DNA of 62,737 bases from Candidatus Woesearchaeota archaeon. GTDB taxonomy: Archaea > Nanobdellota > Nanobdellia > SCGC-AAA011-G17 > UBA489. The position numbers and the translations under genes are program-made. Of this stretch, positions 7,245 to 22,287 are shown one piece after another. Position 1 is the first letter of the stretch. Each line of letters opens with the position of its first letter. Below the pieces are notes generated by a model, which searched no databases, was not told the DNA's origin, and was given only the letters and a program-made list of their open reading frames with translations. The stretch is from assembly GCA_018658265.1 (NCBI GenBank), contig JABHVN010000002.1, positions 1 to 62,737 on the forward strand. Reading direction: 5' to 3'.

Positions 7245-7283
7245 TATAAAAAAATATAGAAATAGATATTAAATACTTTTCTC

Positions 7284-7688
7284 CTAAGGTTTTAGGTATA
7301 TTACCTTTAAATTTCCAGAATAAGTTCCTTTTTCGACACCTGGAGGAAGTTTAAGAACTAATTCTAAATTCTTTTTTTCACCAGCCAAAACCATAAAATC
7401 TGTATCTTCAACATACATATAATCTATCCCAGTAAGCTTAACTTTTACAGATATATCCACATCAGAACTAATAACTATGTCTCTTCTAAGCACCATATCC
7501 CCTCTTGCAGTACCAAAATGTATTGCATCTTCATCAAGATTAATTCCTATATGATCCCCTACAATATAATCCACATCATAAGTTTTGTACCCAATAATTT
7601 TAACATTAATATAAATAAAGAACAATAAAAAAATTAACAAAACAGAAACCAAAATGCCCAAGAGAGTTATTTTATAATTAAATTTCAT
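7284..7688 (-). CDS. Small membrane-anchored protein carrying one copy of the shared beta-sandwich module
   Basis: N-terminal TM (ITLLGILVSVLLIFLLFFIYI). Module motifs AIHFGTARGD, DISVKVKLTG and GTYSGNLKVIY are collinear with 8921..9571 and with the C-terminus of the giant protein; 4-nt overlap with the upstream gene. Confidence 0.65.
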   Translation of the reverse strand: MKFNYKITLLGILVSVLLIFLLFFIYINVKIIGYKTYDVDYIVGDHIGINLDEDAIHFGTARGDMVLRRDIVISSDVDISVKVKLTGIDYMYVEDTDFMVLAGEKKNLELVLKLPPGVEKGTYSGNLKVIYLKP

Positions 7689-8896
7689 TTTCCCAATTTA
7701 TCTTGTAATTGATCCATCTTATTGGAATAATCTTCTTTTTTATCGGATATATGGCCTTTTTTCCTTAAGGTTAACCAAAGAAAATTTGCAAAAATCAAAC
7801 ATACAATTAGAATTCCTGCAACCATTTCTTTTGTAAAGAATTTCTTATCACTGATAACTGAAAAATCAAATTTCTGTATTTTTTCAGAGCCGTTATACTT
7901 TATTGTAACAACCAATTGATAAGCTCCTTGATTAACATTGGAAATATCTAAATAAACAGGTACATTCTTTTCACCAAGAGCTTTCAAATCAAATCCATTT
8001 GAAATAGATCTTTCTGTAATAGGTACGCCATTTTTTTCAATATACGTTTCAATAACTACATCGTTAATAGCAATATTCCATTTATTATCCACAACAAACA
8101 TTAATTTCCTAATTCCTCCAAAAGTTGCATTAAAAGGATATTCAATAACTTCTACATCTTCATATCCAACTTTAAAAGTTATATTTCTATGGTCTGTTTC
8201 AATTCCGTCATAAGTTACAAAAGAGTCTGCAACAAATGTTCCACCGCCAATTTCAGAACTATCTACATTAATTGTCTTTGTAACTTTTACACCTGAAATT
8301 AAAGACGAAGCACTATCTTCAACTTCAAAAAGTTTCTCTTCGGTTGAAGGATCATAGATTATTAAATTAGATTTAAGTCCAAAAATATTTCCTTCTCCCT
8401 TGTTAGCTATATTGAAATTAAAATTCAATTCTTCCCCTTCATTTACATCTTCAACACTCAAACCATATTCTAAATACCTCTCAGGATACGGAACATCAAC
8501 AACAACTCTTGCAACTACCACCAATGAAGCAGATATACCTTCTTTTCTTTCAGTTATTTCTTGATTAACATTTAAATCATGATTAACTGGGCCATGGAGA
8601 TCTAAGCTAGCAGGAAAAGAATATTCTACAATATACTTTGTTGAAGACCCAGCCTTAACTTCTTGTACACCATTAACCATATTAAAATACTCAGAAAAGG
8701 GGCCTCCCAAATTAACTGAAGCATTAACAGATTCATCTCCGTTGTTTATTAGCATAATCTCAAAACTTCCTGCACCGTATGGTTCAAAGGAGATGTAGGT
8801 ATCACTTGGTGCAATTCCCAATGCATTAACTGTAGAAGTAAGAACTAATAAGAAAATTAAATAATTCAACACCTTCTTCATAGTTTTATTAAACAA
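7685..8896 (-). CDS. Secreted multi-domain beta-rich protein with C-terminal TM anchor (paralog of 9836..11041)
   Basis: Signal peptide ending NALGIAP, CARDB-like NIANKGEGNIFGLKSNLIIYDP, C-terminal helix GILIVCLIFANFLWLTL followed by RKKGH. Confidence 0.7.
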   Translation of the reverse strand: MFNKTMKKVLNYLIFLLVLTSTVNALGIAPSDTYISFEPYGAGSFEIMLINNGDESVNASVNLGGPFSEYFNMVNGVQEVKAGSSTKYIVEYSFPASLDLHGPVNHDLNVNQEITERKEGISASLVVVARVVVDVPYPERYLEYGLSVEDVNEGEELNFNFNIANKGEGNIFGLKSNLIIYDPSTEEKLFEVEDSASSLISGVKVTKTINVDSSEIGGGTFVADSFVTYDGIETDHRNITFKVGYEDVEVIEYPFNATFGGIRKLMFVVDNKWNIAINDVVIETYIEKNGVPITERSISNGFDLKALGEKNVPVYLDISNVNQGAYQLVVTIKYNGSEKIQKFDFSVISDKKFFTKEMVAGILIVCLIFANFLWLTLRKKGHISDKKEDYSNKMDQLQDKLGK

Positions 8897-8920
8897 AAAT
8901 AGTTTATAAATTTAACTAGA

Positions 8921-9571
8921 TTAAGCACCTAACGACCTTGCCGTGAACTGTATAAAGTCTCCAGCAGTACCATTAACTGTACTATTCAATGCAATAAGTA
9001 TGGAGATATTAATTTCGTCTGTGAATCCTCCAGCACTAGCATACGAAAAATTAGGACATACTGTTTTTTCTCCAGTGTCCAAATCCTGAGCAATTAATGC
9101 AAAAGCCATGTCTACTGATGCAGCACTATAACAAGACGAATTAGTCCATTTAGTTAAACTTGTATTCTCTAATCGATATTGATAACTTGGAGTGGGAGTG
9201 GAAAATAAATCTAAAGCTGTTTTTGTACTATTTATAGTTAGATTAACATAAACATTTCCATCATTTCTTAACCAAAAAGAAGTTGGACTTGAGAAACCAT
9301 TAGGATTAGCATTAGGTTCAGTGGAATTAATCAGAGTATTACCAGTAGTACTTACATACCCAGTTCCAAAATTAACATTTGAAGCCAATAATGCCACATC
9401 AACAGTTGTAGATACTGTTACATTAACAGATCCAGTTGTTTCATTAATAATATTAAATCCTGTTAATCCGCTAATTCCACCTGTAACAAATAAGATGGTA
9501 GAAATAGATCCAAGAACTACTAATAACGTAAGTAATCCTGTAAAATTTAAAACTCTGTCAGTAATTTTCAT
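8921..9571 (-). CDS. Small N-anchored or secreted, sequon-rich protein consisting of the shared beta-sandwich module
   Basis: N-terminal hydrophobic helix, more than 10 N-x-S/T sequons. Motifs NVNFGTGYV, FWLRNDGNVYVNLTINS and EINISILIAL..GDFIQFTA are collinear with the last ~160 aa of the 2,626-aa protein. Confidence 0.7.
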   Translation of the reverse strand: MKITDRVLNFTGLLTLLVVLGSISTILFVTGGISGLTGFNIINETTGSVNVTVSTTVDVALLASNVNFGTGYVSTTGNTLINSTEPNANPNGFSSPTSFWLRNDGNVYVNLTINSTKTALDLFSTPTPSYQYRLENTSLTKWTNSSCYSAASVDMAFALIAQDLDTGEKTVCPNFSYASAGGFTDEINISILIALNSTVNGTAGDFIQFTARSLGA

Positions 9572-9789
9572 GTGCTTCCCTCTTCAGTTTCAGGATTAGG
9601 TAAAATTTCTATATTAACTTTTGCACCTGTGTTATCTTCATATGATTCTTCTTCTTGATCAACAGTAACAGTATCCTCTTCAACATTACTAACAACTGTC
9701 CAAGTAATTAATAAACTAATAAATATAACTAAAACTAATAATGCAAAAACAAGTTCTCTCTTAACTACCGTCTTTTTCGCCCTAACCAT
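9568..9789 (-). CDS. Small single-pass membrane protein with acidic tail
   Basis: MVRAKKTVVKRE + LVFALLVLVIFISLLITWTV + Glu/Asp-rich tail; 4-nt overlap with the downstream gene suggests translational coupling. Confidence 0.5.
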   Translation of the reverse strand: MVRAKKTVVKRELVFALLVLVIFISLLITWTVVSNVEEDTVTVDQEEESYEDNTGAKVNIEILPNPETEEGST

Positions 9790-9835
9790 TGAACAAAACC
9801 TATTATAATGAATATATAAACTTTGCCATAGTTCT

Positions 9836-11041
9836 CTAATCTCTCCTTTTAAACCAATGCATCCAAACCAGATTAATCATAATTAAAATAATCAATATGC
9901 TTAATAATATCCAAGAAAGATTGCTAGTAAATTTATCCTCATAACCTTGTTTTACTCCTTCAACAACAAATTTATTTTCGTAAAACGTCGTTTCTATATT
10001 TTGTTCGATATCTTTGTTTCCATAATGCACTCTTAATTTAGTGATATATTCTCCTTCCTCTAAGTCTCCAACATCAATATGTCCTGTAAATTTTCCTTCT
10101 TTTCGTTTGGAAATGCTTTCCTTAGATGTGACAAATGAGCTTATTAATAAATTATTCAGATCATAAACACTTATTTCTGCATAAACATTATTTAATTCTT
10201 CATTCCAAATATTTTTAACAGTCACTTCGAATTTCACAGCATCTCCCAAAACTTCTCCCACAATTAAGTCATTAATACTCATTTTTCTTCCTTCAACAAT
10301 AAACTTATCTTCAAATTCATTAATTTTAGAATCGTATTCTAGAATAACATTAACAAAATACTCTCCAGGATTAACTTCAGTTGACCAAACTAATCTAATC
10401 TCTTTTCTTTCTCCAGTAACTATAGAAATAGATTTACTTTTTAGTTCATCAATAGTATTTTGTCCATCATGAATATTCAAAGCAACGCTAACTTTTGAAA
10501 GATTTTCTACACCCAAATTCTCAACAGGAATTACAAAAATAGTATTTGATCCTACGTCCCCCTCATAAATGTAAAAATCAGAAGAAATATATTTGGTATC
10601 ATGAGGTACTTTGACCCTCAGTAAACTAATCAAACCAACACTGGTACCTATTAAATTCTCTTTTAGATCTACAATTTCCCTAGCAGTAAAATAGATATCA
10701 TTATTTCCCTGAGAGATATCATTTTTTGAAAGAGTTTTTGGAATATTCAATGAATATTTGACAATAGTTTCTTTATTGGCCTCCAACGACAGAATATTTC
10801 CTTTTTCTAAAACTACATATTTAGACAATTCTCCTTCTACACCTATTGAAACCTTAGTAAACCTGTCTAAAGTATTAACTACTTTAAATTCCGATTCAAA
10901 ATTTAAGCCATCTTCAAAATCAACAATTTTTTTGGCAGGAGAAATGCCTAAAGCACTAACCAATGAAACAGTTAAAACTAACAAAGTAAAAACACTTAAC
11001 AAATTAAAAATAAATTTCTTACCCTCCATTGATTTCACCAT
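9836..11041 (-). CDS. Secreted multi-domain beta-rich protein with C-terminal TM anchor (paralog of 7685..8896)
   Basis: Signal peptide ending SALGISPA, CARDB-like VENLGVENLSKVSVALNI, C-terminal helix WILLSILIILIMINLVWMHW followed by FKRRD. The start overlaps the end of the giant ORF by 23 nt (alternative ATG at 11029). Confidence 0.7.
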   Translation of the reverse strand: MVKSMEGKKFIFNLLSVFTLLVLTVSLVSALGISPAKKIVDFEDGLNFESEFKVVNTLDRFTKVSIGVEGELSKYVVLEKGNILSLEANKETIVKYSLNIPKTLSKNDISQGNNDIYFTAREIVDLKENLIGTSVGLISLLRVKVPHDTKYISSDFYIYEGDVGSNTIFVIPVENLGVENLSKVSVALNIHDGQNTIDELKSKSISIVTGERKEIRLVWSTEVNPGEYFVNVILEYDSKINEFEDKFIVEGRKMSINDLIVGEVLGDAVKFEVTVKNIWNEELNNVYAEISVYDLNNLLISSFVTSKESISKRKEGKFTGHIDVGDLEEGEYITKLRVHYGNKDIEQNIETTFYENKFVVEGVKQGYEDKFTSNLSWILLSILIILIMINLVWMHWFKRRD

Positions 11042-14000
11042 ACCATGTTGTTAATTCCAAAATCATGCCCTTTGCGCCAGCCAATTCACCTACAGGGACA
11101 GATATATTAAAATCAATTCTAGCTTCATCAGAAGAATCATCTTTGCTTAAATTATTAATAAACTTTTCAGTAACTCCTGAGGCAGGCATAATTCTGTAAG
11201 TAATATTTGAATCTGCAGAATCAAAAGAAGATCCTTCTGTACCATCTCCAACTTTCACACTAAAATAATCTATACTATGAGGTAAACTTTGTGTATCCCA
11301 AAATGCAACAGTTGGCCCAGTAATATTAACATCCGCTAGAACATTTCCAGAGTTTTCAATCCAAATCGGACAAGGTGTAGGAGTTTGTGTTGATAAATCG
11401 CATCCAGAAGTTTCCGATCTAACCCCAACACCCAAACTACCAAAATCAACAACTTGATCTAAAATGTCTAATGCAATATAAGTAGACAAATTATAATTAA
11501 ATACTGTAGGTAAATCTTCTTCTTGTACATATGGATCTTCAGATTTTACTGTCCACCTATAAAAATTATTATCGTCATAAAATCTAGTTAATTCTGTAGG
11601 TAATGTAAAAGTACAATTATCTTCATTATCAAGATAACCATTAGCATTAGCATCACAATTCGTTGAATTTTCAACAACTAAATATTCTCTTTCGTCATCA
11701 CAAGTTCCACCTGCCACAACAAAACAACTAATGTTCAATGTATGGTTAACCTGATCTTGATCTGGATCAGATGTTCTACCTTGACAAAAGAAATTTCCTT
11801 CTGAAACGCAAGAAGTATTACTTACACTTGGCAACCTATCGAAAATATCAGAGGGAGTCCAATTAAACGTAGGTGTTCTGTTTGTGTAAGTTATTGTTTC
11901 ATCAGGGCCATTTAGTACTGCCGTGCCAGGTTCATAATTTTCAATAAAGATATATGATGAATTTTCTTGATCTGAAACACTGGACCTGGTATCGGTTGTA
12001 GTAATATTACAACTATAATTTTCAAAATGATTATATGTAAATGCCGAAAGATTATCCGTATATGGATATCCTGAAGTTAAACCTGTAGGAGTTTTAGTAG
12101 CGAACAAATCAGTACCATTGTAATACTTAATCGTTACATCTAATGTTGAATCCCAATCATCTAATGGTGTAAATGTACAATTAATACCTGTGGTTCTATT
12201 AACTCCTGTAGGGCCTATTGAGAGGGAATTAATTTCGGGTTTCCTATCTATTGTAAACATCCAAGAATCACTTTCATTTGAAAGTTTAGGTACATATTCT
12301 TCAGTATCGTAATCATCAACTTCAACAAACCAAGAATGATCTCCAGAAGGTAATCTATACATATCTAAAACTTCCGAAGCATTTAAACTTTTATTTAAAA
12401 TTGCAAATTCATCTATAGATCCATTAAATTCATAATCAATTAAACCTACGGCTGTTCTACCTACACCTATTAAAACAGCTGCATTATTGTTAGGCATTGA
12501 AGGAACTGTAAATGTACTATTAAAAACGCCATCTATGTAGATTGTTACTTGATCACTCTCATTAAAACTAACAACAATATGAGTCCATTCGTCTTTTTGA
12601 AAGACCCCATCAATAATGGGTGTACTCCCCTCTATTTTCAACCCAAAATCATCACCAACCTGTCTAATTGCAAAACCTGAAGAAACAGCAGCCCTTTTAT
12701 CAAATATTCCTCTTGTGTCACTTAAAATTCTTGGTTTGGCCCAGAAAGAATAAGAAATATTATTTTCACTTACCCAATTATCTTGATCCCCAAAGTTTAC
12801 AAGGTTATCTATAGATGTAGCCGTACTAAAAAATGTCCCCCCAAGTCTTCCCCCAGTTTTATTAATTCTTGCAGCACCCCCCATAGTTCCATTTTGAACA
12901 CCGTCAGAATCAGCAAAATCAAAAACATGTGTACTATTTTCCCCATATTTAGTATTATTATCAAAATGTGCCAACAATAAATAATTACTATCTGGAACTA
13001 AAACTGGAGCTGTCCAATTATAGGTAAGATATGTATTGTTTTGCCAACTAATGTTTTGATACAGCATATCTGAATATGAAACGTCAGATTTAGTTTGTCC
13101 ACTTGACCCATAAATCTTAACAAACATTAATGGATCTTCTGCATCTAACACAGTTGAATTCAATAAAATTTCTCCTACATCTGTGTAATTAGTAGTATTA
13201 ATTGGTGCAATTACAGTTGCATTGGGATGAGTATTCGTCACAACAGCACCTATGTCAAATTGAAATAAATCCGAATTATTAACTAACTGACTATCATCAC
13301 CAGAAGCATTCCAATAATAAGTTGTATCTGTTAATTTTAATGTTTGATTTATTTCTTCACTAGTTAAAGTTCTGTTTATTACAATAAAATCATCAATACC
13401 CCCATTCCAAGGAAGGGGATTACCACCATTATTAGAATTACTAGCTCCAATCCTAAAATTAAGAATTGCTGCAGTGTAAATTGCATGAGTATTTGTAAAT
13501 GTGTTATTCAATACACCATTCCTATATACTGCATATGACCCATTTTGAAATCTTGTAATGGCCATATGAACCCACTCGCCATTATTAAGAAAAAAACCTG
13601 GAGTAAGAGAAGTTGTATCACTTGCACCATTTCCTTGAATAACTGCCATATTTTTGCCATTTTGTCCAACAAAAAAACCAACATATTGTCCAGGAGCACC
13701 AGCAGGATCAAACACTCCCTGGGCAGCAAACATTCTTGATTGAGTTATATCGTCCGACCTAAGCCAACCCATAATAGTTAAATTCCACCTATGTTGAATT
13801 TCGGTATATCCAGGGGCAACTGTAACCCAGTCTCCTGTACCATCAAACTCAAAGTTTCCACCAAAAATATCATTACTATAATCTACTGCTGCATCGCCCC
13901 CCGGAGTACCATTTTTAACATCTGCCCAATCATAAACCTTTGTTGAAGATTCACCTTTAGATAAAATTTGATCAAAATGGAATCCAAATAATGTATCACT

Positions 14001-17000
14001 TACAATATCGAAAGGACGTTTACTAAAATTATAGCTTACTTTCGTACCATTGGTTACATTCGCCTTGTAAACTAAATCATCCAATTCAGGATTGCTATCA
14101 TTAGAAGCATAAATCTTCAAAGTAACATTATCCACAGGCAACAGGTCGTCAACAACTGTTACATTAAGCTCAACACCTGCAGTACCAGAATCATGATTAG
14201 TTGTATTTGCAGGAGCAGTAATTGTCACATTAGGTATTTCATTTGGATCTATAATGTGATCAAACTCTAAAAACGCAGTATTTAATCCATCATCATTAAT
14301 AACTTTCAAATCAAATGTATCATTCTCTCCAGACATAGCCGTCAAATAGGCCTTATAATACCCTTCAGAACTAATGTTATCAAATGTAGTAATTAAATTT
14401 GAAGTATTCTCTTCGTAAACCTTCACATGAGTATTCGCACTTTGATTATTCCTTACATAAATTTTAATGTGGTGTGCAGGAGTTAAATTTTGTTCAAAAG
14501 TTACCCTAACAATCTCAGTATTATTAATCATTTCAGTCCAATTACCATCCAAAGCATTAGTTTGATTATACACATCTGAAATAAAAGAATAATTTTCATC
14601 CAAATGTTGTGCAGCAGTTATATTTATTTCACCAAAACCTGGGTCATTAGGCGTGATAGTTATATTGTAATCTTGACCCGGAATCATCCCTTCTTTTAAT
14701 AACGTCCATGACCCTCCGCAAGATTGATCAGTATAATTCCAATCCGCACATTTATACAAAGTATTGGAAGTTGCAGTAACGGTTACCGTTGCATTTACAA
14801 AATTTTGTAGTTTGGGATTAATTGCAAATGTTTTTTGAAATTTATCTATTGGAACTGCTTTATCCAAATCAATAATTTGATTTACCCCATTAGACATGTT
14901 ATAATCTTCAAAAAGGATTTGTTTGATAGTTCCATCAATGGGTTTAAGAATAATATCATAAATTCCAGAAGATAAGCTCAAGTTGTGAATAGTTCCGTTT
15001 TGAGAATATACATTTCCTCCCCCATCACTATTAATTTCTAACGACACATTAACTGGAACACCATTTCCATCAACAACAGTTTCATTAACTGTCACATTAG
15101 AAGATTCTCCGCCACCAGAATAAGCTGGCCATTCAATTGTTTGAAAAGTATAATCTTGTATCTGTCCACTGTCAGATTGCCATAAATTTGCAGTAGAAGT
15201 ATCGGTTAGTTGAACTGCAACATATCCCCTTGGCCATGCCGTTCCAGTTCCACCGGACTGTGAACTAACACCTGCAATAGAAGTTTCTCCTAATCCGTAA
15301 GTTAAACCTGTAAGTGTTACTTGCCAATTATCTTCTTCCTCACCACCAGTTGGACGCGCAGTAGGATTATAATGAGTGACTTTCATAGGATAGTTTTCGG
15401 TTTGAGTATTAGAAATAACCCATGTTACCGCATTCATATTTGATCCCCAATTCGTAGTGCCCCTAGGCAAACTATAAGTAACTGTATTTGTTGCAGTCAA
15501 TTCAACTTCTGCACCACCTTGGATCAAACCATCATAATTATTTCCTGCTTCATTTCTCTGTTGAGTATGGAAAAATGCACGACTAATGGCACCAACATCA
15601 GTGATAGTATCATATTGGATTGCAGATGCATTAAAGGCATGCGCTACTCTTTGAACATTCCAATTTGAACCCTTATATTCTACAATTGCATAACTAATAT
15701 CGCAATTATCGCTTGCAGCTTCTCCCCTTGTAAATCTGGGTAAATCTGAAACGGCAACCCATGCAGAAGTTACCATACAAGATTGATGATCGTTTCTCCC
15801 TACATCAGAATTACTGGCGCCTGTCAAAAATACAACAACATCTGCATCATCAGTGGGAGCAATAATTGCTCCATCACAAGTTAAACTAGATGTTCCAAAA
15901 GAACAAGTTCCAGTATCAATAACATCCATTTCATTAGGATCTCCAATTGTTCCACTATACTCCCAGATTTCCCAAGAAATTCTATTGTTTGTTGCAGACC
16001 CACGTCTTGTAAATGTAATTGTCCCACTTCCAGCTGTAAGTCCTGTATCATCAGAAATGTAAGTAGTATAATCATCCACATTTTGGTTTCCTCCACCAGA
16101 TGTGCTTCCAACAGCATTGTTTCTTGAAGAAACCTGTTTAATAAAACAACTTCCAGTACATTGATTAAAGTCTACACCCTCTGTCAATATTCCAGTTAGG
16201 GATGCAGAACCCATGATCAATGAACCCCTTTGAATAGTAAAGTCGCTTGTACCACTAGGATCTACAATATAATCAAATTTTACTTTACCGTCAATTATTT
16301 TCAAATCAAATGTATCTTGTACACCTGCAAGTCCAGATAAATAAACTTTGTTAAATTCATCATTTCTAATAGCAACAAACTCAGCTATAATTTCTTTCCC
16401 ATCGACAGTATAAATTTCAATTTTTGGAGACCCTTCAATAATTTGAGGATAAATTGTTATATCGTTATCAGATCTTAAGTTTTTTTCAAAAGTTACTCTT
16501 ACATATTCACCATCATTTATTGTCTCACTCCAAATTCCATCTAATTTACTTACATTACTGTAAATATCTGACATAAATGTCCTATTTACATCTAAATGCA
16601 ATGCATTAGTAATTACAATTATTTCATAAGTTTCATTATTTTCTAAAAGTGGTACAACCCATTCAACATAGTCAACAAGACCATCTTGATTATTATCTTT
16701 TAATGAAAAGTTGTGTTTTTGTTTAATTTCTTTCCCAGTAAATGTGTCTAAAATTATTCTATAAAGATTAACTTTATCAGCCTCGCTTTCAGGAATGTTA
16801 ACAAAAGATAATACATTTTCATAAGTTAAATCTGATTTTAATACTACCCTCACACCTTCGGAGATATTTTCTACCTCTAATGTGGGACCAGGCGTTTCAT
16901 ATTCAATCTCAACAGTTTCAACTAGATCATCAACTTTAACTATATCTACCTCTGCACTAAGATTTGAATCATTCACAATTGTTTCTTGTAAAGGTAGGGT

Positions 17001-18899
17001 CTCTATCAAAGGAACTTCAGAAACGACCATCCCTGTTATTGAATTTCCGGTTATTGAATTCAAAATTCCTTTTGTAAATCCTTCTGAAGAATCTCCAGTT
17101 AAATTAATAATCGTCCCATTACCTTCATCCAAACTAGCAGAAACAATAGGGGCAGTTTTTCCATTAACTATTTTATTCAAAGTTATATTCTCAGCTACAT
17201 CAGGAAGTTCAAACTCAACCTTCTCTTTAGCAGCATCAAGCATTATTTTTTTCTTCCATTTTACAGGTTGACCTATAATCGCACCGTACTGTATTGTTTC
17301 TTCAGTAACATTTCCAACAGTAGAAACTATGGTAGTTGTTTTGGTAACATTTATCAAAGTTTCAACAATAATCTCTGGTTGAATATGTTCAACTCCAAGG
17401 ATAATTTTTCCTTGTCCATCATTAAAAGATAAAGAATAGTTAACTCCTTCTAAAGATTCATACTCACTTTTAATCAAACTTAAATCCAAAACTGAATCTT
17501 TAATATAAAATTTCAAAATAAAATTATTACTTAATACATTCTTTAATTTACAAGTATCTTCGCATCCAGAATCAAATGAATTTATAGTATAATCGCTAAC
17601 ATTCATAATATCTAATAGGTTAACCAAAAAATCTTCTTTCCCTACTTCAATTTCTTCTTCAGATTCAATTTCTAGATCTTCTTCAATATCTTCTAATTCA
17701 AATACTCCTTCTGCAAATGCCATAACCTCTCTAGCTAAATCTGCAGTATAATTTTCAGAATTGTTAATATCGAACAAATATATCCAATCAGTTAAACAAA
17801 TACCAAATTCAAAATCCCAGTAACTACAACCATACAAAAAGTCTCCTTCAGATTGTGCACTAAAAGAAGTATTAGTTTCATTAAAGGCAGTAAGGTTCAA
17901 TCCACTAAAATCAAACCCAAATACTCTTTCAAAAGATATGTTATTTGGTTCAATTAATCCCTTAGAAGAATACTCTTCATATGCAAACCACCCTTCTTTT
18001 TCAGGATATTCTATTTCAATAAAATCATCAAGTTCAACAACAGCAGTACCATTGCTCCCATTCAAAGATTCATACTTAACTTTTTTACCTCGTGAATCAA
18101 TTACATTAAAACCAGTTAATAATGATGCAATTTCCTTGTAATTCTTAATATTTTCAACAGGGTCTTCAAGAACAGCATTACCAGTTATACCTATTGAATC
18201 AAAAAAACTTTCATCATTAGATTCACTATCATAAACTAAATATGTATCTCCTGAATCAACATCAGATAAAAATATTTTAGCTACACCTTCTTCGAAAGAA
18301 GCAGTTCTTCCAGATAGCTTCAAACTCTTTAGTTTTTCAATTCCATTAAAATTTAAACTATACTCAGAACTTTCACTAACTAATAATGAGATCTTATGTT
18401 CTCCTTCTTCAACAGGCTTTGCTTCAGAAAAAATAAAATCTCCAGTTATTTTATTTCCTTCAGAAACTACATTACCAGTTATAGGGATTCCATCTTCGAA
18501 GCCTTCTCTAGCAATATCTGAAAATGTTTTAAATTCAATAGCAAAACCACCACTAATATCGTTACTGTTATCAACATTAAGGATACCTCCAAAATGCATA
18601 AATCCTACTAACATAGTTATCAAAACAAAAGACAAGAATATTCTATCTTTCATATGTACATCATGATCTTTAATTAAGATAAGATGTGTTCGAGGATTTA
18701 ATGTTTTTTTCAGGGTTGCACTACTTCTTTTATGGACCGATTTAGAACTTTCTTTCTTTAATACTTTTAATTTCTGTCCGGCTTTCTTTAAATCACTACC
18801 AAGATAAACAGATTTAACTTTTCCATTTTTCAGTCTAATACTATCGTAATAGTATGGACCTAATTTTTTACCCCTTTTTGTAATATACTTCTTATACAA
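11019..18899 (-). CDS. Giant (2,626 aa) membrane-anchored surface protein: two Ig-like+LamG units, a duplicated ~120-aa module, a Cys-rich region and a C-terminal beta-sandwich module shared with two small neighbours
   Basis: Uninterrupted 7.9-kb ORF. TTG start at 18899 preceded by AGAGGGA. Residues 1-82 are Lys/Arg-rich with GPYYYDS..NGKVKSVYLG. The first ATG (18653) opens the hydrophobic helix MKDRIFLSFVLITMLVGFMHFGG. LamG-type (Laminin_G_3-like) C-terminal signatures are GGIDDFIVINRTLTSEEINQ (~13345..13405) and GSIDEFAILNKSLNASEVLDMY (~12355..12420). Dozens of N-x-S/T sequons. Confidence 0.85.
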   Translation of the reverse strand: MYKKYITKRGKKLGPYYYDSIRLKNGKVKSVYLGSDLKKAGQKLKVLKKESSKSVHKRSSATLKKTLNPRTHLILIKDHDVHMKDRIFLSFVLITMLVGFMHFGGILNVDNSNDISGGFAIEFKTFSDIAREGFEDGIPITGNVVSEGNKITGDFIFSEAKPVEEGEHKISLLVSESSEYSLNFNGIEKLKSLKLSGRTASFEEGVAKIFLSDVDSGDTYLVYDSESNDESFFDSIGITGNAVLEDPVENIKNYKEIASLLTGFNVIDSRGKKVKYESLNGSNGTAVVELDDFIEIEYPEKEGWFAYEEYSSKGLIEPNNISFERVFGFDFSGLNLTAFNETNTSFSAQSEGDFLYGCSYWDFEFGICLTDWIYLFDINNSENYTADLAREVMAFAEGVFELEDIEEDLEIESEEEIEVGKEDFLVNLLDIMNVSDYTINSFDSGCEDTCKLKNVLSNNFILKFYIKDSVLDLSLIKSEYESLEGVNYSLSFNDGQGKIILGVEHIQPEIIVETLINVTKTTTIVSTVGNVTEETIQYGAIIGQPVKWKKKIMLDAAKEKVEFELPDVAENITLNKIVNGKTAPIVSASLDEGNGTIINLTGDSSEGFTKGILNSITGNSITGMVVSEVPLIETLPLQETIVNDSNLSAEVDIVKVDDLVETVEIEYETPGPTLEVENISEGVRVVLKSDLTYENVLSFVNIPESEADKVNLYRIILDTFTGKEIKQKHNFSLKDNNQDGLVDYVEWVVPLLENNETYEIIVITNALHLDVNRTFMSDIYSNVSKLDGIWSETINDGEYVRVTFEKNLRSDNDITIYPQIIEGSPKIEIYTVDGKEIIAEFVAIRNDEFNKVYLSGLAGVQDTFDLKIIDGKVKFDYIVDPSGTSDFTIQRGSLIMGSASLTGILTEGVDFNQCTGSCFIKQVSSRNNAVGSTSGGGNQNVDDYTTYISDDTGLTAGSGTITFTRRGSATNNRISWEIWEYSGTIGDPNEMDVIDTGTCSFGTSSLTCDGAIIAPTDDADVVVFLTGASNSDVGRNDHQSCMVTSAWVAVSDLPRFTRGEAASDNCDISYAIVEYKGSNWNVQRVAHAFNASAIQYDTITDVGAISRAFFHTQQRNEAGNNYDGLIQGGAEVELTATNTVTYSLPRGTTNWGSNMNAVTWVISNTQTENYPMKVTHYNPTARPTGGEEEDNWQVTLTGLTYGLGETSIAGVSSQSGGTGTAWPRGYVAVQLTDTSTANLWQSDSGQIQDYTFQTIEWPAYSGGGESSNVTVNETVVDGNGVPVNVSLEINSDGGGNVYSQNGTIHNLSLSSGIYDIILKPIDGTIKQILFEDYNMSNGVNQIIDLDKAVPIDKFQKTFAINPKLQNFVNATVTVTATSNTLYKCADWNYTDQSCGGSWTLLKEGMIPGQDYNITITPNDPGFGEINITAAQHLDENYSFISDVYNQTNALDGNWTEMINNTEIVRVTFEQNLTPAHHIKIYVRNNQSANTHVKVYEENTSNLITTFDNISSEGYYKAYLTAMSGENDTFDLKVINDDGLNTAFLEFDHIIDPNEIPNVTITAPANTTNHDSGTAGVELNVTVVDDLLPVDNVTLKIYASNDSNPELDDLVYKANVTNGTKVSYNFSKRPFDIVSDTLFGFHFDQILSKGESSTKVYDWADVKNGTPGGDAAVDYSNDIFGGNFEFDGTGDWVTVAPGYTEIQHRWNLTIMGWLRSDDITQSRMFAAQGVFDPAGAPGQYVGFFVGQNGKNMAVIQGNGASDTTSLTPGFFLNNGEWVHMAITRFQNGSYAVYRNGVLNNTFTNTHAIYTAAILNFRIGASNSNNGGNPLPWNGGIDDFIVINRTLTSEEINQTLKLTDTTYYWNASGDDSQLVNNSDLFQFDIGAVVTNTHPNATVIAPINTTNYTDVGEILLNSTVLDAEDPLMFVKIYGSSGQTKSDVSYSDMLYQNISWQNNTYLTYNWTAPVLVPDSNYLLLAHFDNNTKYGENSTHVFDFADSDGVQNGTMGGAARINKTGGRLGGTFFSTATSIDNLVNFGDQDNWVSENNISYSFWAKPRILSDTRGIFDKRAAVSSGFAIRQVGDDFGLKIEGSTPIIDGVFQKDEWTHIVVSFNESDQVTIYIDGVFNSTFTVPSMPNNNAAVLIGVGRTAVGLIDYEFNGSIDEFAILNKSLNASEVLDMYRLPSGDHSWFVEVDDYDTEEYVPKLSNESDSWMFTIDRKPEINSLSIGPTGVNRTTGINCTFTPLDDWDSTLDVTIKYYNGTDLFATKTPTGLTSGYPYTDNLSAFTYNHFENYSCNITTTDTRSSVSDQENSSYIFIENYEPGTAVLNGPDETITYTNRTPTFNWTPSDIFDRLPSVSNTSCVSEGNFFCQGRTSDPDQDQVNHTLNISCFVVAGGTCDDEREYLVVENSTNCDANANGYLDNEDNCTFTLPTELTRFYDDNNFYRWTVKSEDPYVQEEDLPTVFNYNLSTYIALDILDQVVDFGSLGVGVRSETSGCDLSTQTPTPCPIWIENSGNVLADVNITGPTVAFWDTQSLPHSIDYFSVKVGDGTEGSSFDSADSNITYRIMPASGVTEKFINNLSKDDSSDEARIDFNISVPVGELAGAKGMILELTTWYGEINGG

Positions 18900-18974
18900 A
18901 CGTATCCCTCTTCTTAAAAGTAATAAAAAAAGGTTGCACTACGGCATTATAAACATTATGGTTAAAAAAATAAA

Positions 18975-20582
18975 TTAATAAATTGGCAAATTATTAGTTC
19001 CGTTTAACCAAAAGGTATATTCAAAGGCAGTCCTTCCATTAAATGCGCTGTTTAGGTCACTAACAATATATTTTATATCTGCTTTATTATTATCTGTCAC
19101 AATTTCATAGTATCCGGAATCTGCTGAACCCCAAATTCCTTTATTATAATCTGCAACGCCATTATTATCGTAATCCATTACATCTTTGAAGCAATTTAAT
19201 TTTGACCAAGGCGCTCCAACACCAGAAGATTTTCCACCAGAGATATAATACACTCCATCACCTTGATTATTTGCATCTTTTTTTTCACCAATAGTTGCTA
19301 CATGATCATGACTCAAAAAGAAAAATTGGCCATTATACTTTTTCATTAATTTGTGCAATGTTGCTTGCTCTCCTAAAAAGGTACCATTAACTTCTCCATT
19401 ATCCGTAGCCTTCAAACTACTTCGCCCATAAAAATAACAAGATATTGATGAATTTGGATCAGTTACTCCTCCATCTATATGCTCAATAAATACAAACTTC
19501 CATTTTCTATCAGAAGTTTTCAAAACCTCTTCAAACCACGATAATTGTTGGGTACCCAAGGTCCATTCATTAACATTTTGAGGAATATCCTCGGGACCGC
19601 CCATAATATCTAAAACTATTATTTGAACATCGCCAGAAGAAAAAGTATAATACTGACCTTCGGGATTACCAATAAATACTTCGCTAGGATTAGGTAAATA
19701 TTTCATTCGTGCATTATGGCTTAAATTTGCAATTTTATCAGAATGATCACATTGGTCAAGTGCACTATTGGGGTCTCCAAAACTAGTTTCTCCATCATGA
19801 TTTCCTAACTTGTAAATCATTGGTGCAGAATCAGTAATTGCACCATAAACATCCTCGCCAAGGATTAATTCATATCTTAATTCTGCTTCTCTTGCATTTT
19901 CAACAGAGGTATCTCCAGAATCTTCACCATTAATATTACACCTATCACACCCATTACAATGAGTCATAGCTTCATCTCCACCCATTACAAAAAATTCTGC
20001 TTTAGGGGAAATATCAATTATATTATTCAATGTTTGTTTATGTAAATCCATTCCATCTATAGCCCTTTGATTTGGAACTCCAGGAGCACAAACCTCATTC
20101 CTATTTCCCCTGGAATATAATCCATAATAATGGGAGTCTGCCATTGCTACAAAGGTAACTGGATTAGTATCATCCCTATCTCTTAAGGTTCTAAATGTAT
20201 ATTCTTCTCGAACTCCAAAACTAGTTCCATTAGCTTTTTTACATCTAGTTCTATAAAAATATCTTTTTCCAGGATCTAATCTATCTAATTTGAAAGTTAC
20301 TCTTTCTCCTGCTAAAACAGTTTTAATAGAAGTACTCGCTAAATATTTTTCTCTTTTATAACCCTACTCAATGTAAACATCCGCATCTTCTTTTGGAACC
20401 ATACTAACATCCATGGTAGTTAATTGGGGATTAGATAATGTTTCTTCAATAGTAAACTCTACATCGCATAAATACTTTTCAGAACTAACTAAACTTTGTG
20501 CATAAATTGATTGAATAGAAACAACTGCTACAAATAAGAATATTACTACAGAAAAAATAACCGATGCTTTCTTTGAATACAT
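18975..20582 (-). pseudogene. Secreted purple-acid-phosphatase-like metallophosphoesterase interrupted by an in-frame TAG at 20364..20366
   Basis: ORFs 20364..20582 (signal peptide MYSKKASVIFSVVIFLFVAVVSIQSIYA) and 18975..20144 share one frame. The 73 codons between them are open and encode GERVTFKLDRLDPGKRYFYRTR..EYTFRTL (PAP N-terminal Fn3-like domain) running into the metallophosphatase motifs FVAMADSH, GGDE, GNHD, FIEH, LSHDH. Confidence 0.75.
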
Positions 20583-22213: not shown

Positions 22214-22287
22214 GGGGATATAGCATAATCTGGTTAGTGTTGCCGCCTCCAGAGCGGCGTGTCCAGGTTCAAATCCTGGTATCCCCA
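22214..22287 (+). tRNA. tRNA-Trp (anticodon CCA)
   Basis: Manual cloverleaf: acceptor GGGGATA/TATCCCC, D stem GCAT/GTGT (two G:U pairs), anticodon stem GCCGC/GCGGC with loop CTCCAGA, T arm CCAGG-TTCAAAT-CCTGG, discriminator A, 74 nt, no intron, no encoded CCA. Confidence 0.88.

What the first reader, a model, noticed from the sequence alone, without database searches (positions are those of the whole stretch)
11019..18899. Architecture of the 2,626-aa giant protein, including a basic cytoplasmic GPYYY head before the membrane anchor
The ORF opens with TTG preceded by AGAGGGA. Its first 82 residues are Lys/Arg-rich (YITKRGKKLGPYYYDSIRLKNGKVKSVYLGSDLKK...), and the first ATG (18653) starts the hydrophobic helix. 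If the TTG start is used, the protein has a small basic cytoplasmic domain, one TM helix and about 2,500 extracellular residues. The extracellular part contains an acidic region, a duplicated ~120-aa module, a Gly/Thr/Ser-rich beta region, two Ig-like+LamG units (~12355..14240), a Cys-rich DPDQD-containing segment (~11530..11945) and a terminal beta-sandwich module. It carries very many N-x-S/T sequons, pointing to heavy N-glycosylation. LamG lectin-type domains on giant surface proteins are a recurring theme for host-contact proteins of episymbiotic archaea. The cytoplasmic head suggests coupling to something inside the cell.
Basis: partly seen in the sequence, partly recalled or inferred. 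Interest (0 to 1): 0.72.

Follow-up and report, generated by a model that had tools for sequence, protein, structure and literature searches.

The report
Conserved cytoplasmic head on giant archaeal adhesin
A 2,626-residue sugar-coated surface protein of a tiny symbiotic archaeon starts with a 38-residue, highly conserved basic mini-domain on the cytoplasmic side of its membrane anchor, and the same undescribed "head" opens more than 1,500 other membrane-protein families in this lineage.

Summary
ORF 11019..18899(-) is an intact 2,626-aa gene. It is identical in length in at least 12 public assemblies and is annotated only as "LamG domain-containing protein", Candidatus Woesearchaeota.

The TTG start is real:
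- Orthologs keep the TTG, the AGAGGGA Shine-Dalgarno-like motif and a TTTATA box.
- Codons 1-38 change almost only synonymously.
- The head is the most conserved stretch of the protein (0.87 identity against a mean of 0.42).

The protein has one membrane-spanning (TM) helix at residues 85-107. The N-side carries net charge +18 and the ectodomain about -220. Sequons number 95 against 37 expected, and none lies before residue 280. Two LamG units, the duplicated module and three C-terminal Ig/FN3-like sandwiches are all confirmed.

The new result is that the head is not specific to giant proteins. A head profile finds 1,539 cluster representatives, almost all at residue 1. In 89 of 94 long enough to judge, a TM helix follows. 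They occur in Pacearchaeota/Woesearchaeota MAGs, several per genome, and most are over 1,000 aa. AlphaFold2 gives a confident three-stranded beta-meander.

Pfam and NCBIfam matches (DUF6788, DUF1678, UBP) are all below threshold, and I found no literature. The head's function is inferred: a retained cytoplasmic topology and docking tag.

The parts
11019..18899 (-). Whole gene: 2,626-aa type II-anchored, LamG-containing giant surface protein (TTG start, stop at 11019-11021).
   Evidence: The gene model is the same length in at least 12 assemblies. NCBI names it 'LamG domain-containing protein [Candidatus Woesearchaeota archaeon]'.
18946..18953 (-). TTTATAAT, a TATA-box-like element at -54 to -47 from the TTG, inside a block conserved in orthologous loci (CATAAT-TTTATA-..GTAGTGCAAC).
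   Evidence: upstream sequences of the window, L001 and L002 compared by eye. Promoter function is inferred from the known archaeal BRE/TATA layout.
18905..18911 (-). AGAGGGA Shine-Dalgarno-like motif, 5 nt before the TTG.
   Evidence: It is conserved as AAGAGGGA in L001 and L002.
18786..18899 (-). Head, residues 1-38: (M)YKKYITKRGKKLGPYYYDSIRLKNGKVKSVYLGSDLK. Cationic three-stranded beta-meander, predicted cytoplasmic.
   Evidence: AF2 pLDDT 92 with strands at 2-8, 11-22 and 28-34. It is the most conserved 38-aa window of the protein. Against orthologs, codons 1-38 show 14 synonymous and 2 nonsynonymous changes (L001) and 13 and 4 (L002). A head profile finds 1,539 cluster representatives.
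18648..18785 (-). Basic linker, residues 39-84. A helix starts at about residue 37. The motif RSSATL (residues 58-63) is invariant.
   Evidence: identity 0.64.
18579..18647 (-). Single transmembrane helix (signal anchor), residues 85-107, ending in the conserved FMHFGG.
   Evidence: It is the only Kyte-Doolittle peak in the protein. Family identity is 0.68, high for a discarded signal peptide.
16689..18578 (-). Membrane-proximal ectodomain, residues 108-737. It contains the ITGxVV motifs (residues 140, 151, 238, 616, 620), acidic stretches and Cys pairs 358/368 and 446/450. Residues from about 520 onward are shared with distant head-bearing giants.
   Evidence: No Pfam or PDB match.
16233..16688 (-). 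Duplicated module, copy 1 (residues 738-889).
   Evidence: 38% identity to residues 1402-1560, E 7e-27.
14697..16232 (-). Insertion cassette, residues 890-1401. The G/S/T-rich, almost sequon-free beta region runs to about residue 1260. An Ig-like stretch follows, with Cys 1384/1394.
   Evidence: It is present only in P0004, P0005 and P0010, while other orthologs join residue 889 directly to 1425.
14220..14696 (-). Duplicated module, copy 2 (residues 1402-1560).
13251..14219 (-). Ig-like + LamG unit 1 (residues 1561-1883).
   Evidence: Internal repeat. One of the two Laminin_G_3 stretches, plus a weak match to the sialidase N-terminal lectin domain at 1758-1853. PDB profile hits to LamG-type domains.
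12249..13250 (-). Ig-like + LamG unit 2 (residues 1884-2217).
   Evidence: Best Laminin_G_3 stretch at residues 2034-2177. Internal repeat.
11022..12248 (-). Three tandem Ig/FN3-like beta-sandwiches (about 2222-2319, 2328-2471 and 2477-2620). The middle one carries the Cys-rich DPDQD loops. They are conserved in otherwise divergent giants.
   Evidence: AF2 pLDDT 82.8. Foldseek matches to contactin FN1-3, fibronectin and complement MG domains, E 6e-8. Conservation.
8921..9571 (-). 216-aa membrane or secreted protein that is a free-standing copy of the giant's last beta-sandwich. It is also sequon-rich.
   Evidence: hhalign of A5 against A4: probability 97%, E 1.2e-10. Sequons 12 against 5.2 expected, z = 3.9. 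Syntenic in L001-L004.
6174..11041 (-). Conserved downstream block of six small surface or membrane protein genes (401, 73, 216, 403, 134 and 356 aa). The first overlaps the giant's stop by 23 nt.
   Evidence: The same order is found in L001-L004. Signal peptides and C-terminal TM segments were read from the translations. The 401- and 403-aa proteins are paralogs. Weak CARDB and Ig-like matches.
20665..21987 (-). Conserved upstream 440-aa Ig-like surface protein with a signal peptide and a C-terminal TM segment.

Best explanation
The gene encodes a giant, probably heavily N-glycosylated adhesin-like fibre of a Woesearchaeota (DPANN) archaeon, inserted as a type II membrane protein.

Proposed topology. 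Translation starts at the TTG. The first 38 residues fold into a small cationic, Tyr-rich three-stranded beta-sheet. A basic linker follows, then a single signal-anchor helix at residues 85-107. About 2,500 acidic residues are exported. They form a chain of beta-sandwich domains: a membrane-proximal stalk, a duplicated module flanking a lineage-specific cassette, two Ig+LamG lectin-type units and three conserved terminal Ig/FN3-like sandwiches.

Proposed role of the head. The head stays in the cytoplasm. It is a class-wide N-terminal tag of this archaeal lineage, shared by many paralogous, mostly very large surface proteins with unrelated ectodomains. I think it does two things. First, as a rapidly folding, strongly positive domain it fixes the N-in orientation and acts as a stopper for the single anchor helix. 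Second, its conserved Tyr/Lys face docks these proteins to one common cytoplasmic partner or anionic surface, so that they are sorted, clustered or retained together.

Shown here: the start and translation of the head (by conservation), the single TM helix and charge asymmetry, the domain content, the recurrence and fixed N-terminal position of the head, and its predicted fold.

Inferred: cytoplasmic retention, actual glycosylation, adhesion, and both proposed roles of the head.
For: Start and translation:
- Orthologous loci keep the TTG, the SD-like motif and a TATA-like box.
- Codons 1-38 show 14 synonymous and 2 nonsynonymous changes against L001, and 13 and 4 against L002.
- The head is the most conserved window of the protein, 0.87 against a mean of 0.42.

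Topology:
- There is only one hydrophobic peak.
- Net charge is +18 before it and about -220 after it.
- No sequon occurs before residue 280, and sequons are 2.6-fold enriched after it.
- The TM helix is itself well conserved (0.68), and it is about 21-23 residues long. This fits an anchor better than a discarded signal peptide.

The head as a class tag:
- 1,539 cluster representatives at E <= 1e-3 and 208 at E <= 1e-10. Nearly all of the 150 best listed start at residue 1.
- 89 of 94 proteins long enough to judge have a TM helix within 250 aa. The median gap is 12 aa, with a range of 5-148.
- 290 confirmed loci lie in Pacearchaeota, Woesearchaeota or Nanoarchaeota MAGs, from two narrow search patterns alone. 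Two or three copies per genome appear among the best 80.
- 36 of 53 ORFs whose length could be determined are at least 1,000 aa.
- The bodies differ between head-bearing giants: LamG, beta-helix, FG-GAP and Big domains.
- Neighbouring surface proteins in the same operon use ordinary Sec signal peptides without a head.

Fold: AF2 pLDDT 92, three antiparallel strands.

Body: Laminin_G_3 twice, PDB profile hits, FN3/Ig tandem, internal duplications.

Background for the topology argument, from my own knowledge and not tested here: the positive-inside rule, and the known effect of a folded N-terminal domain on signal-anchor orientation.
Against: - There is no experimental evidence for topology, cleavage, glycosylation or any partner.
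- TM detection used a hydropathy window, not a trained predictor, and no signal-peptidase predictor was available.
- Linker length varies from 5 to 148 aa. This fits a tethered domain, but a pure topology determinant would not need 35 nearly invariant residues, so the docking half of the proposal rests on conservation alone.
- Weak similarities point to DNA-binding beta-hairpin proteins, which suggests a different partner.
- The conserved C-terminal module and its free-standing paralog could mean that the far end, not the LamG part, does the assembly work.
- About 5% of head proteins show no TM helix.
Confidence: 0.55

Rival explanations
1. The head plus the hydrophobic segment is an extended, cleavable leader, in the manner of bacterial ESPR, YSIRK or KxYKxGKxW signal peptides on very large adhesins. 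In this reading the head works only during targeting. It would pace or route export of huge passengers to a dedicated pathway or site, and it would be removed with the signal peptide. The mature fibre would then be held on the surface by other means, for example its conserved C-terminal module binding the 216-aa paralog or the neighbouring anchored proteins.
For: - The head is always at the extreme N-terminus and usually only 5-20 aa from the hydrophobic segment.
- It is strongly enriched on very large exported proteins.
- A conserved small-residue motif, (I/L/F)TG, often follows the hydrophobic segment.
- The conserved C-terminal module has a free-standing paralog in the operon, which could provide attachment.
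- The giant has no C-terminal TM segment.
Against: - No match to ESPR, YSIRK or KxYKxGKxW models in Pfam or NCBIfam at E <= 10.
- The head is a confidently predicted folded domain, not a short linear motif.
- Linkers reach 148 aa.
- Hydrophobic segments are long (about 21-27 aa) and well conserved within the family.
- In this protein the segment ends in FMHFGGIL, with no AxA-like site.
- ITG-type motifs also recur deep inside the ectodomain, so they look structural.
Confidence: 0.2
2. The head is a nucleic-acid-binding beta-hairpin module related to DUF6788, DUF1678, the SSV1-integrase N-terminus and UBP-type modules. It would tether DNA or RNA to the cytoplasmic face of the membrane at the sites where these surface proteins sit. 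Candidates are the proteins' own mRNA during co-translational insertion, or chromosomal or incoming DNA at cell-cell contacts. This would parallel the conserved intracellular nuclease/ATPase part of SPEARE giants.
For: - Matches are repeated but below threshold. Of 40 heads, 17 hit DUF1678 (best E 1e-3), 9 hit DUF6788 and 2 hit SSV1_ORF_D-335. Twelve hit NCBIfam UBP, always over the same profile region 40-75.
- UBP binds double-stranded DNA through beta-hairpins (PMC12141716).
- The head profile aligns with the C-terminal CGPGCDGCPHGPYRYTVYRDLRGKVTSRYAGK of a haloarchaeal plasmid protein at 92.8% probability, E 3.9e-7.
- The head carries 11 K+R and 7 Tyr in 38 residues.
- SPEARE giants have a conserved cytoplasmic DNA-enzyme-like part (PMC6642349).
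Against: - All database matches are far below the curated cut-offs: 12-21 bits against 27.2 for DUF6788, and about 15 against 90 for UBP.
- This protein's own head gives no hit at all.
- The head profile finds no PDB sequence, UBP included, and Foldseek finds nothing significant.
- A K/Y/G-rich composition can produce such weak hits.
- Nothing here shows nucleic-acid binding.
Confidence: 0.15
3. The head is not made. Translation would start at ATG 18653, and the upstream 246 nt would be a conserved 5' leader.
For: TTG is a rare start codon. The first ATG sits exactly at the start of the hydrophobic segment.
Against: - Differences from orthologs in codons 1-66 are overwhelmingly synonymous.
- The head is the best conserved protein segment.
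- The same peptide opens more than 1,500 other proteins. In the genome loci examined, 74 of 75 start it with ATG (one GVG-type GTG), and it sits at residue 1.
- An SD-like motif sits 5 nt before the TTG and a TATA-like box lies further upstream.
- Independent gene callers chose the same start.
Confidence: 0.03

Closest known systems
Giant LamG/Ig-rich surface proteins of DPANN archaea (SPEARE proteins and LamG/PKD proteins of Nanohaloarchaeota; Hamm et al. 2019, PMC6642349; PMC10266531)
   Same: Very large, acidic, membrane-anchored proteins that are mostly extracellular, with LamG and Ig/FN3-like adhesion domains. They come from episymbiotic small archaea, and a conserved part lies on the cytoplasmic side of the anchor.
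   Different: SPEARE proteins are 3,000-9,400 aa. Most are anchored near the C-terminus and carry a large intracellular enzyme-like (restriction-enzyme or ATPase) region. Here the anchor is N-terminal and the intracellular part is an 84-residue tail with a 38-residue beta-meander. No nuclease, protease or ATPase domain was found.
Pfam DUF6788 (PF20586), DUF1678 (PF07913) and the SSV1 integrase N-terminus (PF07935): uncharacterised 'GPYxY...R..GK...YxG' hairpin modules
   Same: They share the core G-P-Y-x-Y-x3-R-x3-G-x-V-x3-Y-x-G. Heads align to DUF6788 profile positions 44-74. A haloarchaeal plasmid protein with the Cys-knuckle version aligns at 92.8% probability.
   Different: All scores are below the gathering thresholds, and this protein's head gives no hit. 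The first strand, YKKYIxKxGK, replaces the Cys-rich knuckle seen in the haloarchaeal example. The fixed position at residue 1, followed by a TM helix on exported proteins, is the specific feature here. No function is known for any of these families, and the held literature does not mention them.
UBP nucleoid-associated protein of Sulfolobales (NCBIfam NF052683; PMC12141716)
   Same: A small, basic, beta-rich protein whose beta-hairpins contact DNA. Twelve of 40 heads weakly match its profile region 40-75.
   Different: Scores are about 15 bits against a cut-off of 90. There is no PDB sequence or fold match. UBP is a soluble 100-aa dimer, not a membrane-protein tail.
Extended or specialised bacterial signal peptides on giant adhesins: ESPR (PF13018), YSIRK (PF04650), KxYKxGKxW (TIGR03715)
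   Same: A conserved N-terminal extension before the hydrophobic export segment, found on unusually large and often glycosylated surface proteins. The Lys/Tyr/Gly flavour (YKKYIKKNGK) is similar.
   Different: No profile match. These are bacterial and are short linear motifs that abut the h-region and are cleaved off. The head is a predicted folded 35-residue domain with a variable linker, found in archaea. The comparison with these bacterial motifs rests on my own knowledge of them.
Laminin_G_3 / concanavalin A-like lectin domains (PF13385)
   Same: Two domains pass the curated threshold (123.8 bits against 27.6). The family profile hits LamG-type jelly-rolls in the PDB: an S-layer domain protein (4qvs), an arabinanase CBM (5hon), pentraxins and the sialidase lectin domain.
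   Different: The ligand is unknown, and binding-site residues were not compared.

Membership tests
Laminin_G_3 / ConA-like lectin superfamily (PF13385) | Profile match above Pfam's gathering score | tested here: met
   123.8 bits against a cut-off of 27.6, in two stretches. The best covers residues 2034-2177 and profile positions 7-150 of 151.
Laminin_G_3 / ConA-like lectin superfamily (PF13385) | Relatives with a solved jelly-roll lectin fold | tested here: met
   The family profile A6 hits 4qvs (E 5e-9), 5hon (E 2e-7), neuronal pentraxins and the sialidase lectin domain. The LamG units themselves were not modelled.
Laminin_G_3 / ConA-like lectin superfamily (PF13385) | Carbohydrate or Ca2+ binding site | not tested
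   No ligand-site comparison was made.
DUF6788 (PF20586) | Profile match at or above the gathering score (27.2 bits) | tested here: not met
   This protein's head gives no hit at E <= 10. Related heads score 12-21 bits. Nine of 40 heads match at E <= 1.
DUF6788 (PF20586) | Shared GPYxY...R..GK...YxG hairpin core | tested here: met
   Heads align consistently to profile positions 44-74. hhalign against a Cys-knuckle hairpin protein gives 92.8% probability.
UBP nucleoid-associated protein (NF052683) | Profile match at or above 90 bits | tested here: not met
   Best scores are about 16 bits. Twelve of 40 heads match at E <= 1, and this protein's head does not match.
Specialised bacterial signal peptides (ESPR, YSIRK, KxYKxGKxW) | Match to the family motif or profile | tested here: not met
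   No such family appears in the Pfam or NCBIfam scans of residues 1-118 at E <= 10.
Specialised bacterial signal peptides (ESPR, YSIRK, KxYKxGKxW) | Conserved extension N-terminal to the hydrophobic export segment of very large surface proteins | tested here: met
Specialised bacterial signal peptides (ESPR, YSIRK, KxYKxGKxW) | Removal by signal peptidase | not testable with these tools
   No cleavage predictor or proteomics was available. The segment is long and conserved and lacks an AxA-like site.
Type II (N-in) signal-anchor membrane protein | Single hydrophobic helix near the N-terminus, with the positive charge on the N-side | tested here: met
   One Kyte-Doolittle peak at residues 85-109. 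Net charge is +18 before it and about -220 after it.
Type II (N-in) signal-anchor membrane protein | Experimentally determined orientation and retention of the anchor | not testable with these tools
   This needs reporter fusions or proteomics.
SPEARE-type giant proteins of Nanohaloarchaeota | Intracellular restriction-enzyme or ATPase-like region, plus protease or toxin-like ectodomain parts | tested here: not met
   Only Laminin_G_3 and a weak sialidase-N match were found in Pfam. The cytoplasmic part is 84 residues long.
SPEARE-type giant proteins of Nanohaloarchaeota | At least one LamG domain and multiple adhesion-type domains outside the cell | tested here: met
   The feature itself is taken from PMC6642349.
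N-glycosylated archaeal surface protein | Excess of N-x-S/T sequons restricted to the exported part | tested here: met
   95 observed against 37 expected, z = 10.6, with none before residue 280. Controls have |z| < 2.
N-glycosylated archaeal surface protein | Glycans actually attached (AglB-dependent) | not testable with these tools
   This needs glycoproteomics. I did not look for AglB in the window.

The most novel reading that the evidence does not exclude
The YKKY-GPYYY-YLG head may define a previously unrecognised, lineage-wide sorting or docking system of Woesearchaeota/Pacearchaeota. In this reading it is a folded cytoplasmic tag that marks a whole class of type II-anchored, mostly giant surface proteins for recognition by one dedicated intracellular partner. 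That partner could be a targeting or insertion factor, a cytoskeletal or clustering scaffold at the host-contact site, or nucleic acid. Through the tag the symbiont would organise its cell-cell interface from the inside.
Probability: 0.3. Interest if true: 0.8.

Novelty: new variant of a known kind. Interest (0 to 1): 0.6.

Why it matters
DPANN archaea live attached to other cells. Their giant surface proteins are the main candidates for that attachment, yet how such proteins are targeted, oriented, anchored and organised is unknown.

This window shows that in one large DPANN lineage these proteins share a short, extremely conserved and so far unannotated N-terminal domain on the cytoplasmic side. 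It occurs in more than 1,500 protein clusters and several times per genome. That gives three practical things:
- A simple sequence handle for cataloguing the surface proteome of uncultivated Woesearchaeota and Pacearchaeota.
- A reason to correct gene starts. TTG starts and truncated calls such as P0006 hide the head.
- A defined 38-residue object whose binding partner can be sought by pull-down, structure prediction or phylogenetic profiling.

If the head turns out to be a sorting or docking signal, it would be an archaeal counterpart to the specialised signal peptides of bacterial giant adhesins.

Tried and rejected
1. Pfam and NCBIfam scans of residues 1-118 gave nothing relevant.
2. phmmer of the whole protein against PDB sequences gave nothing. 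The head profile against the PDB gave only chance-level hits. Foldseek of the 42-residue head model had a best E of 1.7, which is uninformative for so small a fold.
3. The first word-indexed homolog search with the head alone found only three close fragments. The third, with a broad head alignment, was biased to short fragments. The exhaustive representatives search was what showed the true spread.
4. I first took the database 'M' at position 1 of orthologs as evidence for ATG starts. The DNA of L001 and L002 shows they also use TTG, so that argument was dropped. I replaced it with conservation of the TTG and SD-like motif and with the synonymous/nonsynonymous counts.
A narrow six-sequence alignment worked, but it samples only the GPYYYESY subclass. 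Taxonomic range and copy number are therefore lower bounds.
6. Whole-protein self-BLAST returned nothing. Segment-wise BLAST was needed to see the duplications.
7. tblastn of the head against the phage collection found no match. Against plasmids it found one marginal haloarchaeal hit. That protein is itself below the DUF6788 threshold.
8. Literature searches for GPYYY, DUF6788, DUF1678, PF20586 and PF07913 found nothing relevant.
9. I considered a link between the UBP-like similarity and the neighbouring OapB/OapC origin-associated genes. I found no evidence beyond adjacency and treat it as coincidence.
10. No Pfam family was found for the N-terminal 100-790 region, the 216-, 134- or 73-aa neighbours, or the last sandwich.
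Full report
**1. The observation**

The minus-strand ORF 11019..18899 is 2,626 codons long and opens with TTG. AGAGGGA sits 5 nt upstream, at 18905..18911. In the first 95 codons the only other in-frame start codons are ATG at codon 83 (18653) and TTG at codons 89 and 93.

The ATG opens the only strongly hydrophobic stretch of the protein. Kyte-Doolittle windows above 1.6 occur only at residues 85-109. Residues 1-82 hold 23 K+R against 5 D+E, net +18. The rest holds 143 K+R against 363 D+E.

The window has the same length (62,737 bases) as the longest contig on record for MBT4576723.1, [quoted passage not shown]. Twelve members of the 90% cluster, from NCBI, ENA and JGI assemblies, also have exactly 2,626 residues. 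The ORF is therefore not an assembly artefact and is not fragmented elsewhere. OapB/OapC, SMC, RtcB, aIF2-gamma, aIF5B and FttA-type genes confirm an archaeal chromosome.

**2. Is the head translated?**

I first read the 'M' that opens the orthologs in the protein database as ATG. The DNA shows otherwise. In the loci of the 74%- and 46%-identical orthologs (L001, L002) the codon is again TTG. It is again preceded by AAGAGGGA and, about 50 nt upstream, by a conserved CATAAT-TTTATA-..GTAGTGCAAC block. By the usual archaeal promoter layout this places a TATA box upstream of the head. That reading is an inference, not a mapped transcript start.

Three further lines support translation:
- Against L001, codons 1-38 differ at 16 codons, 14 of them synonymously. 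Against L002 the count is 13 synonymous and 4 nonsynonymous.
- In an alignment of 13 family members the head is the most conserved 38-residue window of the whole protein, with identity 0.87 against a mean of 0.42. The linker scores 0.64, includes an invariant RSSATL motif, and the TM helix scores 0.68.
- One apparent exception, P0006, starts inside the head. It has a cluster sibling 22 residues longer, so it looks like a mis-called start.

The alternative start at ATG 18653 is therefore very unlikely.

**3. The head is a general module**

All 13 orthologs and near-orthologs keep MYKKYIxKKGKKxGPYYYDSIRLKNGKVKSVYLG. Five much more distant giants of 2,100-3,300 aa open with the same pattern, and their bodies include LamG, beta-helix, FG-GAP and Big-type domains.

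A 39-column profile of nine heads was searched exhaustively against 1.84 billion cluster representatives. It found 1,539 proteins at E <= 1e-3 and 208 at E <= 1e-10. In nearly all of the 150 listed, the match starts at residue 1. The listed proteins range from 43 to 3,545 aa, and many of the short ones come from short contigs.

Of 94 proteins long enough to judge, 89 have a hydrophobic helix within 250 residues. The median gap from the YLG motif is 12 residues, with a range of 5-148.

A genome scan using only two narrow peptide patterns confirmed 290 loci. All but one of the best 80 are labelled Pacearchaeota, Woesearchaeota, Nanoarchaeota or 'archaeon' MAGs; the exception is labelled 'bacterium'. 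Several genomes appear two or three times among the 80, including three copies on one 331-kb contig. In these loci the head ORFs start with ATG at the head (one with GTG), and 36 of the 53 whose length can be determined are at least 1,000 aa.

Within this 62.7-kb window there is only one head, by six-frame hmmsearch. The neighbouring surface proteins of the same operon use ordinary Sec-type signal peptides. The head therefore marks a distinct class and is not needed for export in general.

**4. What the head is**

AlphaFold2 on a 40-sequence head alignment gives pLDDT 92. It predicts three antiparallel strands (residues 2-8, 11-22, 28-34) and the start of a helix at residue 37.

Invariant or nearly invariant positions are G10, K11, G14, P15, Y16, Y18, R22, Y32 and G34. 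These amount to the two turns plus a Tyr/Arg/Lys set.

Database comparisons gave the following:
- Foldseek and a PDB sequence search find nothing significant.
- This protein's own head hits no Pfam or NCBIfam model at E <= 10.
- Across 40 heads there are repeated, consistently placed but sub-threshold matches: Pfam DUF1678 in 17 of 40 (best E 1e-3), DUF6788 in 9 of 40 (12-21 bits against a cut-off of 27.2, profile positions 44-74) and the SSV1 integrase N-terminus in 2 of 40.
- NCBIfam UBP is hit by 12 of 40 heads, at about 15 bits against a cut-off of 90.
- UBP is a Sulfolobales nucleoid protein whose beta-hairpins bind the DNA major groove (PMC12141716).
- A haloarchaeal plasmid protein ending in CGPGCDGCPHGPYRYTVYRDLRGKVTSRYAGK aligns with the head profile at 92.8% probability.

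I read the head as a Cys-free version of a small 'GPYxY-R-GK-YxG' hairpin module that is widespread but has no known function. Its first strand is extended. It does not pass any family's membership threshold. No paper in the held library mentions the motif or these DUFs.

**5. The body**

- Sequons: 95 observed against 37 expected (z = 10.6). None lies before residue 280 and only one lies between residues 800 and 1260. Cytoplasmic proteins and even the neighbouring secreted proteins show no excess. The exception is the 216-aa ORF 8921..9571 (z = 3.9).
- Internal duplications: residues 738-889 match 1402-1560 (38% identity, E 7e-27), and 1540-1883 match 1875-2217.
- Insertion cassette: in orthologs P0007, P0008 and P0013, residue 889 joins directly to 1425. 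The two copies of the duplicated module therefore flank a roughly 535-residue G/S/T-rich, nearly sequon-free cassette. Only P0004, P0005 and P0010 carry all of it, and P0017 carries part.
- LamG units: Pfam finds Laminin_G_3 twice. A family profile finds LamG-type jelly-rolls, a bacterial Ig domain and the sialidase lectin domain in the PDB.
- C-terminus: the last 410 residues model (pLDDT 82.8) as three tandem Ig/FN3-like sandwiches. The middle one bears the Cys-rich DPDQD loops.
- Shared parts: these C-terminal domains, the head and the region from about residue 520 to 890 are what distant head-bearing giants have in common. The LamG middle varies.

**6. Genomic context**

The gene order is conserved in L001-L004: OapB, OapC, (variable genes), a 440-aa Ig-like protein, the giant, then ORFs of 401, 73, 216, 403, 134 and 356 aa, with SMC on the opposite strand.

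- The giant's stop overlaps the next start by 23 nt.
- The 401- and 403-aa proteins are paralogs. Each has a Sec-type signal peptide and a C-terminal anchor.
- The 216-aa protein is homologous to the giant's last sandwich (hhalign probability 97%, E 1.2e-10).

The conserved far end of the giant and a free-standing copy of it are thus co-encoded. This suggests homotypic assembly at the surface and weakens the idea that the C-terminus is a host-specific tip.

**7. Mechanism**

My best-supported reading is a type II-anchored, glycosylated adhesin-like fibre whose LamG units are the likeliest ligand-binding parts. It is co-expressed with a set of smaller surface proteins.

The head most likely remains cytoplasmic, for four reasons: the charge asymmetry, the long and conserved anchor helix, linkers of up to 148 residues, and a confidently folded domain. 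I propose that it fixes N-in orientation and stops the single helix from being pulled out. I also propose that its conserved face docks all head-bearing proteins to one common intracellular partner. Both roles are inferences.

Rivals:
- A cleaved, extended leader working only in targeting (probability 0.2).
- A nucleic-acid-tethering hairpin (0.15), which the weak UBP/DUF6788 similarities hint at.
- An untranslated leader (0.03).

**8. Novelty and verdict**

The giant protein itself is a new member of a known kind, the DPANN LamG surface giants (PMC6642349, PMC10266531), and it is already deposited with the same gene model.

The head is the interesting part. It is an unannotated, extremely conserved module fixed at the N-terminus, and it opens a whole class of mostly giant membrane proteins in one archaeal lineage. 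Its closest relatives are uncharacterised DUF hairpins, and its closest functional analogues are bacterial specialised signal peptides. I rate it a new variant of a known kind, with interest 0.6.

**9. Limits**

- Hydropathy windows stood in for trained topology predictors.
- The genome scan sampled one subclass of heads.
- The AF2 models rest on 13-40 sequences.
- Nothing here tests glycosylation, cleavage, binding or host contact.

Noticed in passing
window 8921..9571 (-): The 216-aa ORF (an N-terminal hydrophobic segment, then GLTGFNI) is a free-standing homolog of the giant's last beta-sandwich: hhalign probability 97%, E 1.2e-10. It is the only other sequon-enriched ORF in the window (12 against 5.2 expected). 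It is syntenic in all related loci.
   Followed up: yes
window 9836..11041 (-) and 7685..8896 (-): The 401- and 403-aa ORFs are full-length paralogs (22% identity, E 4e-12). Both have a Sec-type signal peptide ending in ..(S/N)ALGI(S/A)P, a C-terminal TM anchor and weak CARDB-like matches. The first overlaps the giant's stop codon by 23 nt.
   Followed up: partly
window 18711..18728 (-), residues 58-63 of the giant: An RSSATL motif in the cytoplasmic linker is invariant across 13 family members. Many other head proteins instead carry a (V/I/F)TPT motif just before their TM helix. Possible modification or recognition sites; unexplained.
   Followed up: no
giant residues 140, 151, 238, 616, 620 (window about 17030..18482); also L005-L084 and proteins P0042-P0164: An (I/L/F)TGx(V/A)(V/I) motif recurs in the membrane-proximal ectodomain. 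In many head proteins it sits directly after the TM helix (for example FTGRVSLDV), and it also occurs in the 216-aa ORF. It could be a structural strand motif or a processing site.
   Followed up: no
window about 15120..16500 (-), residues 800-1260: The G/S/T-rich region has one sequon in about 460 residues, while the rest of the ectodomain has about 4 per 100 aa. Residues 890-1424 form an insertion cassette, flanked by the duplicated module, that most orthologs lack.
   Followed up: partly
L002-L004 (SMC gene, for example L002 20719..23803) against window 2754..6179 (+): The SMC ortholog next to the cluster in the P0010 loci is 1,686 aa and carries an intein (Intein_splicing + LAGLIDADG_3). 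The window's SMC is 1,141 aa without one.
   Followed up: no
window 18975..20144 (-): The 389-aa ORF directly upstream of the giant (weak PhoD-like phosphatase match, no obvious signal peptide) is the variable slot of the cluster. It is a 536-aa ORF in L001. In L002-L004 a Metallophos-like gene and a 205-aa ORF lie elsewhere, and this slot is empty there.
   Followed up: no
window 22290..23158 (-) and 22214..22287 (+): OapC and OapB (origin-associated protein families) lie about 3.4 kb upstream of the giant gene, next to tRNA-Trp, and this adjacency is conserved in related loci. No Orc1/Cdc6 gene or origin repeats were looked for.
   Followed up: no
L085 1120..1596 (Haloplanus sp. HW8-1 plasmid NZ_CP098520.1, WP_127341294.1): A haloarchaeal plasmid hypothetical protein ends in CGPGCDGCPHGPYRYTVYRDLRGKVTSRYAGK. 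This is a Cys-knuckle version of the same hairpin as the head, yet the protein is itself below Pfam's DUF6788 threshold (12.7 bits).
   Followed up: partly
protein P0006 (2,203 aa) against P0259 (2,225 aa): Public gene calls for some orthologs start inside the head (MKDGKVKSVYLG...), 22 residues short. Heads with TTG starts are likely to be under-called in databases.
   Followed up: partly
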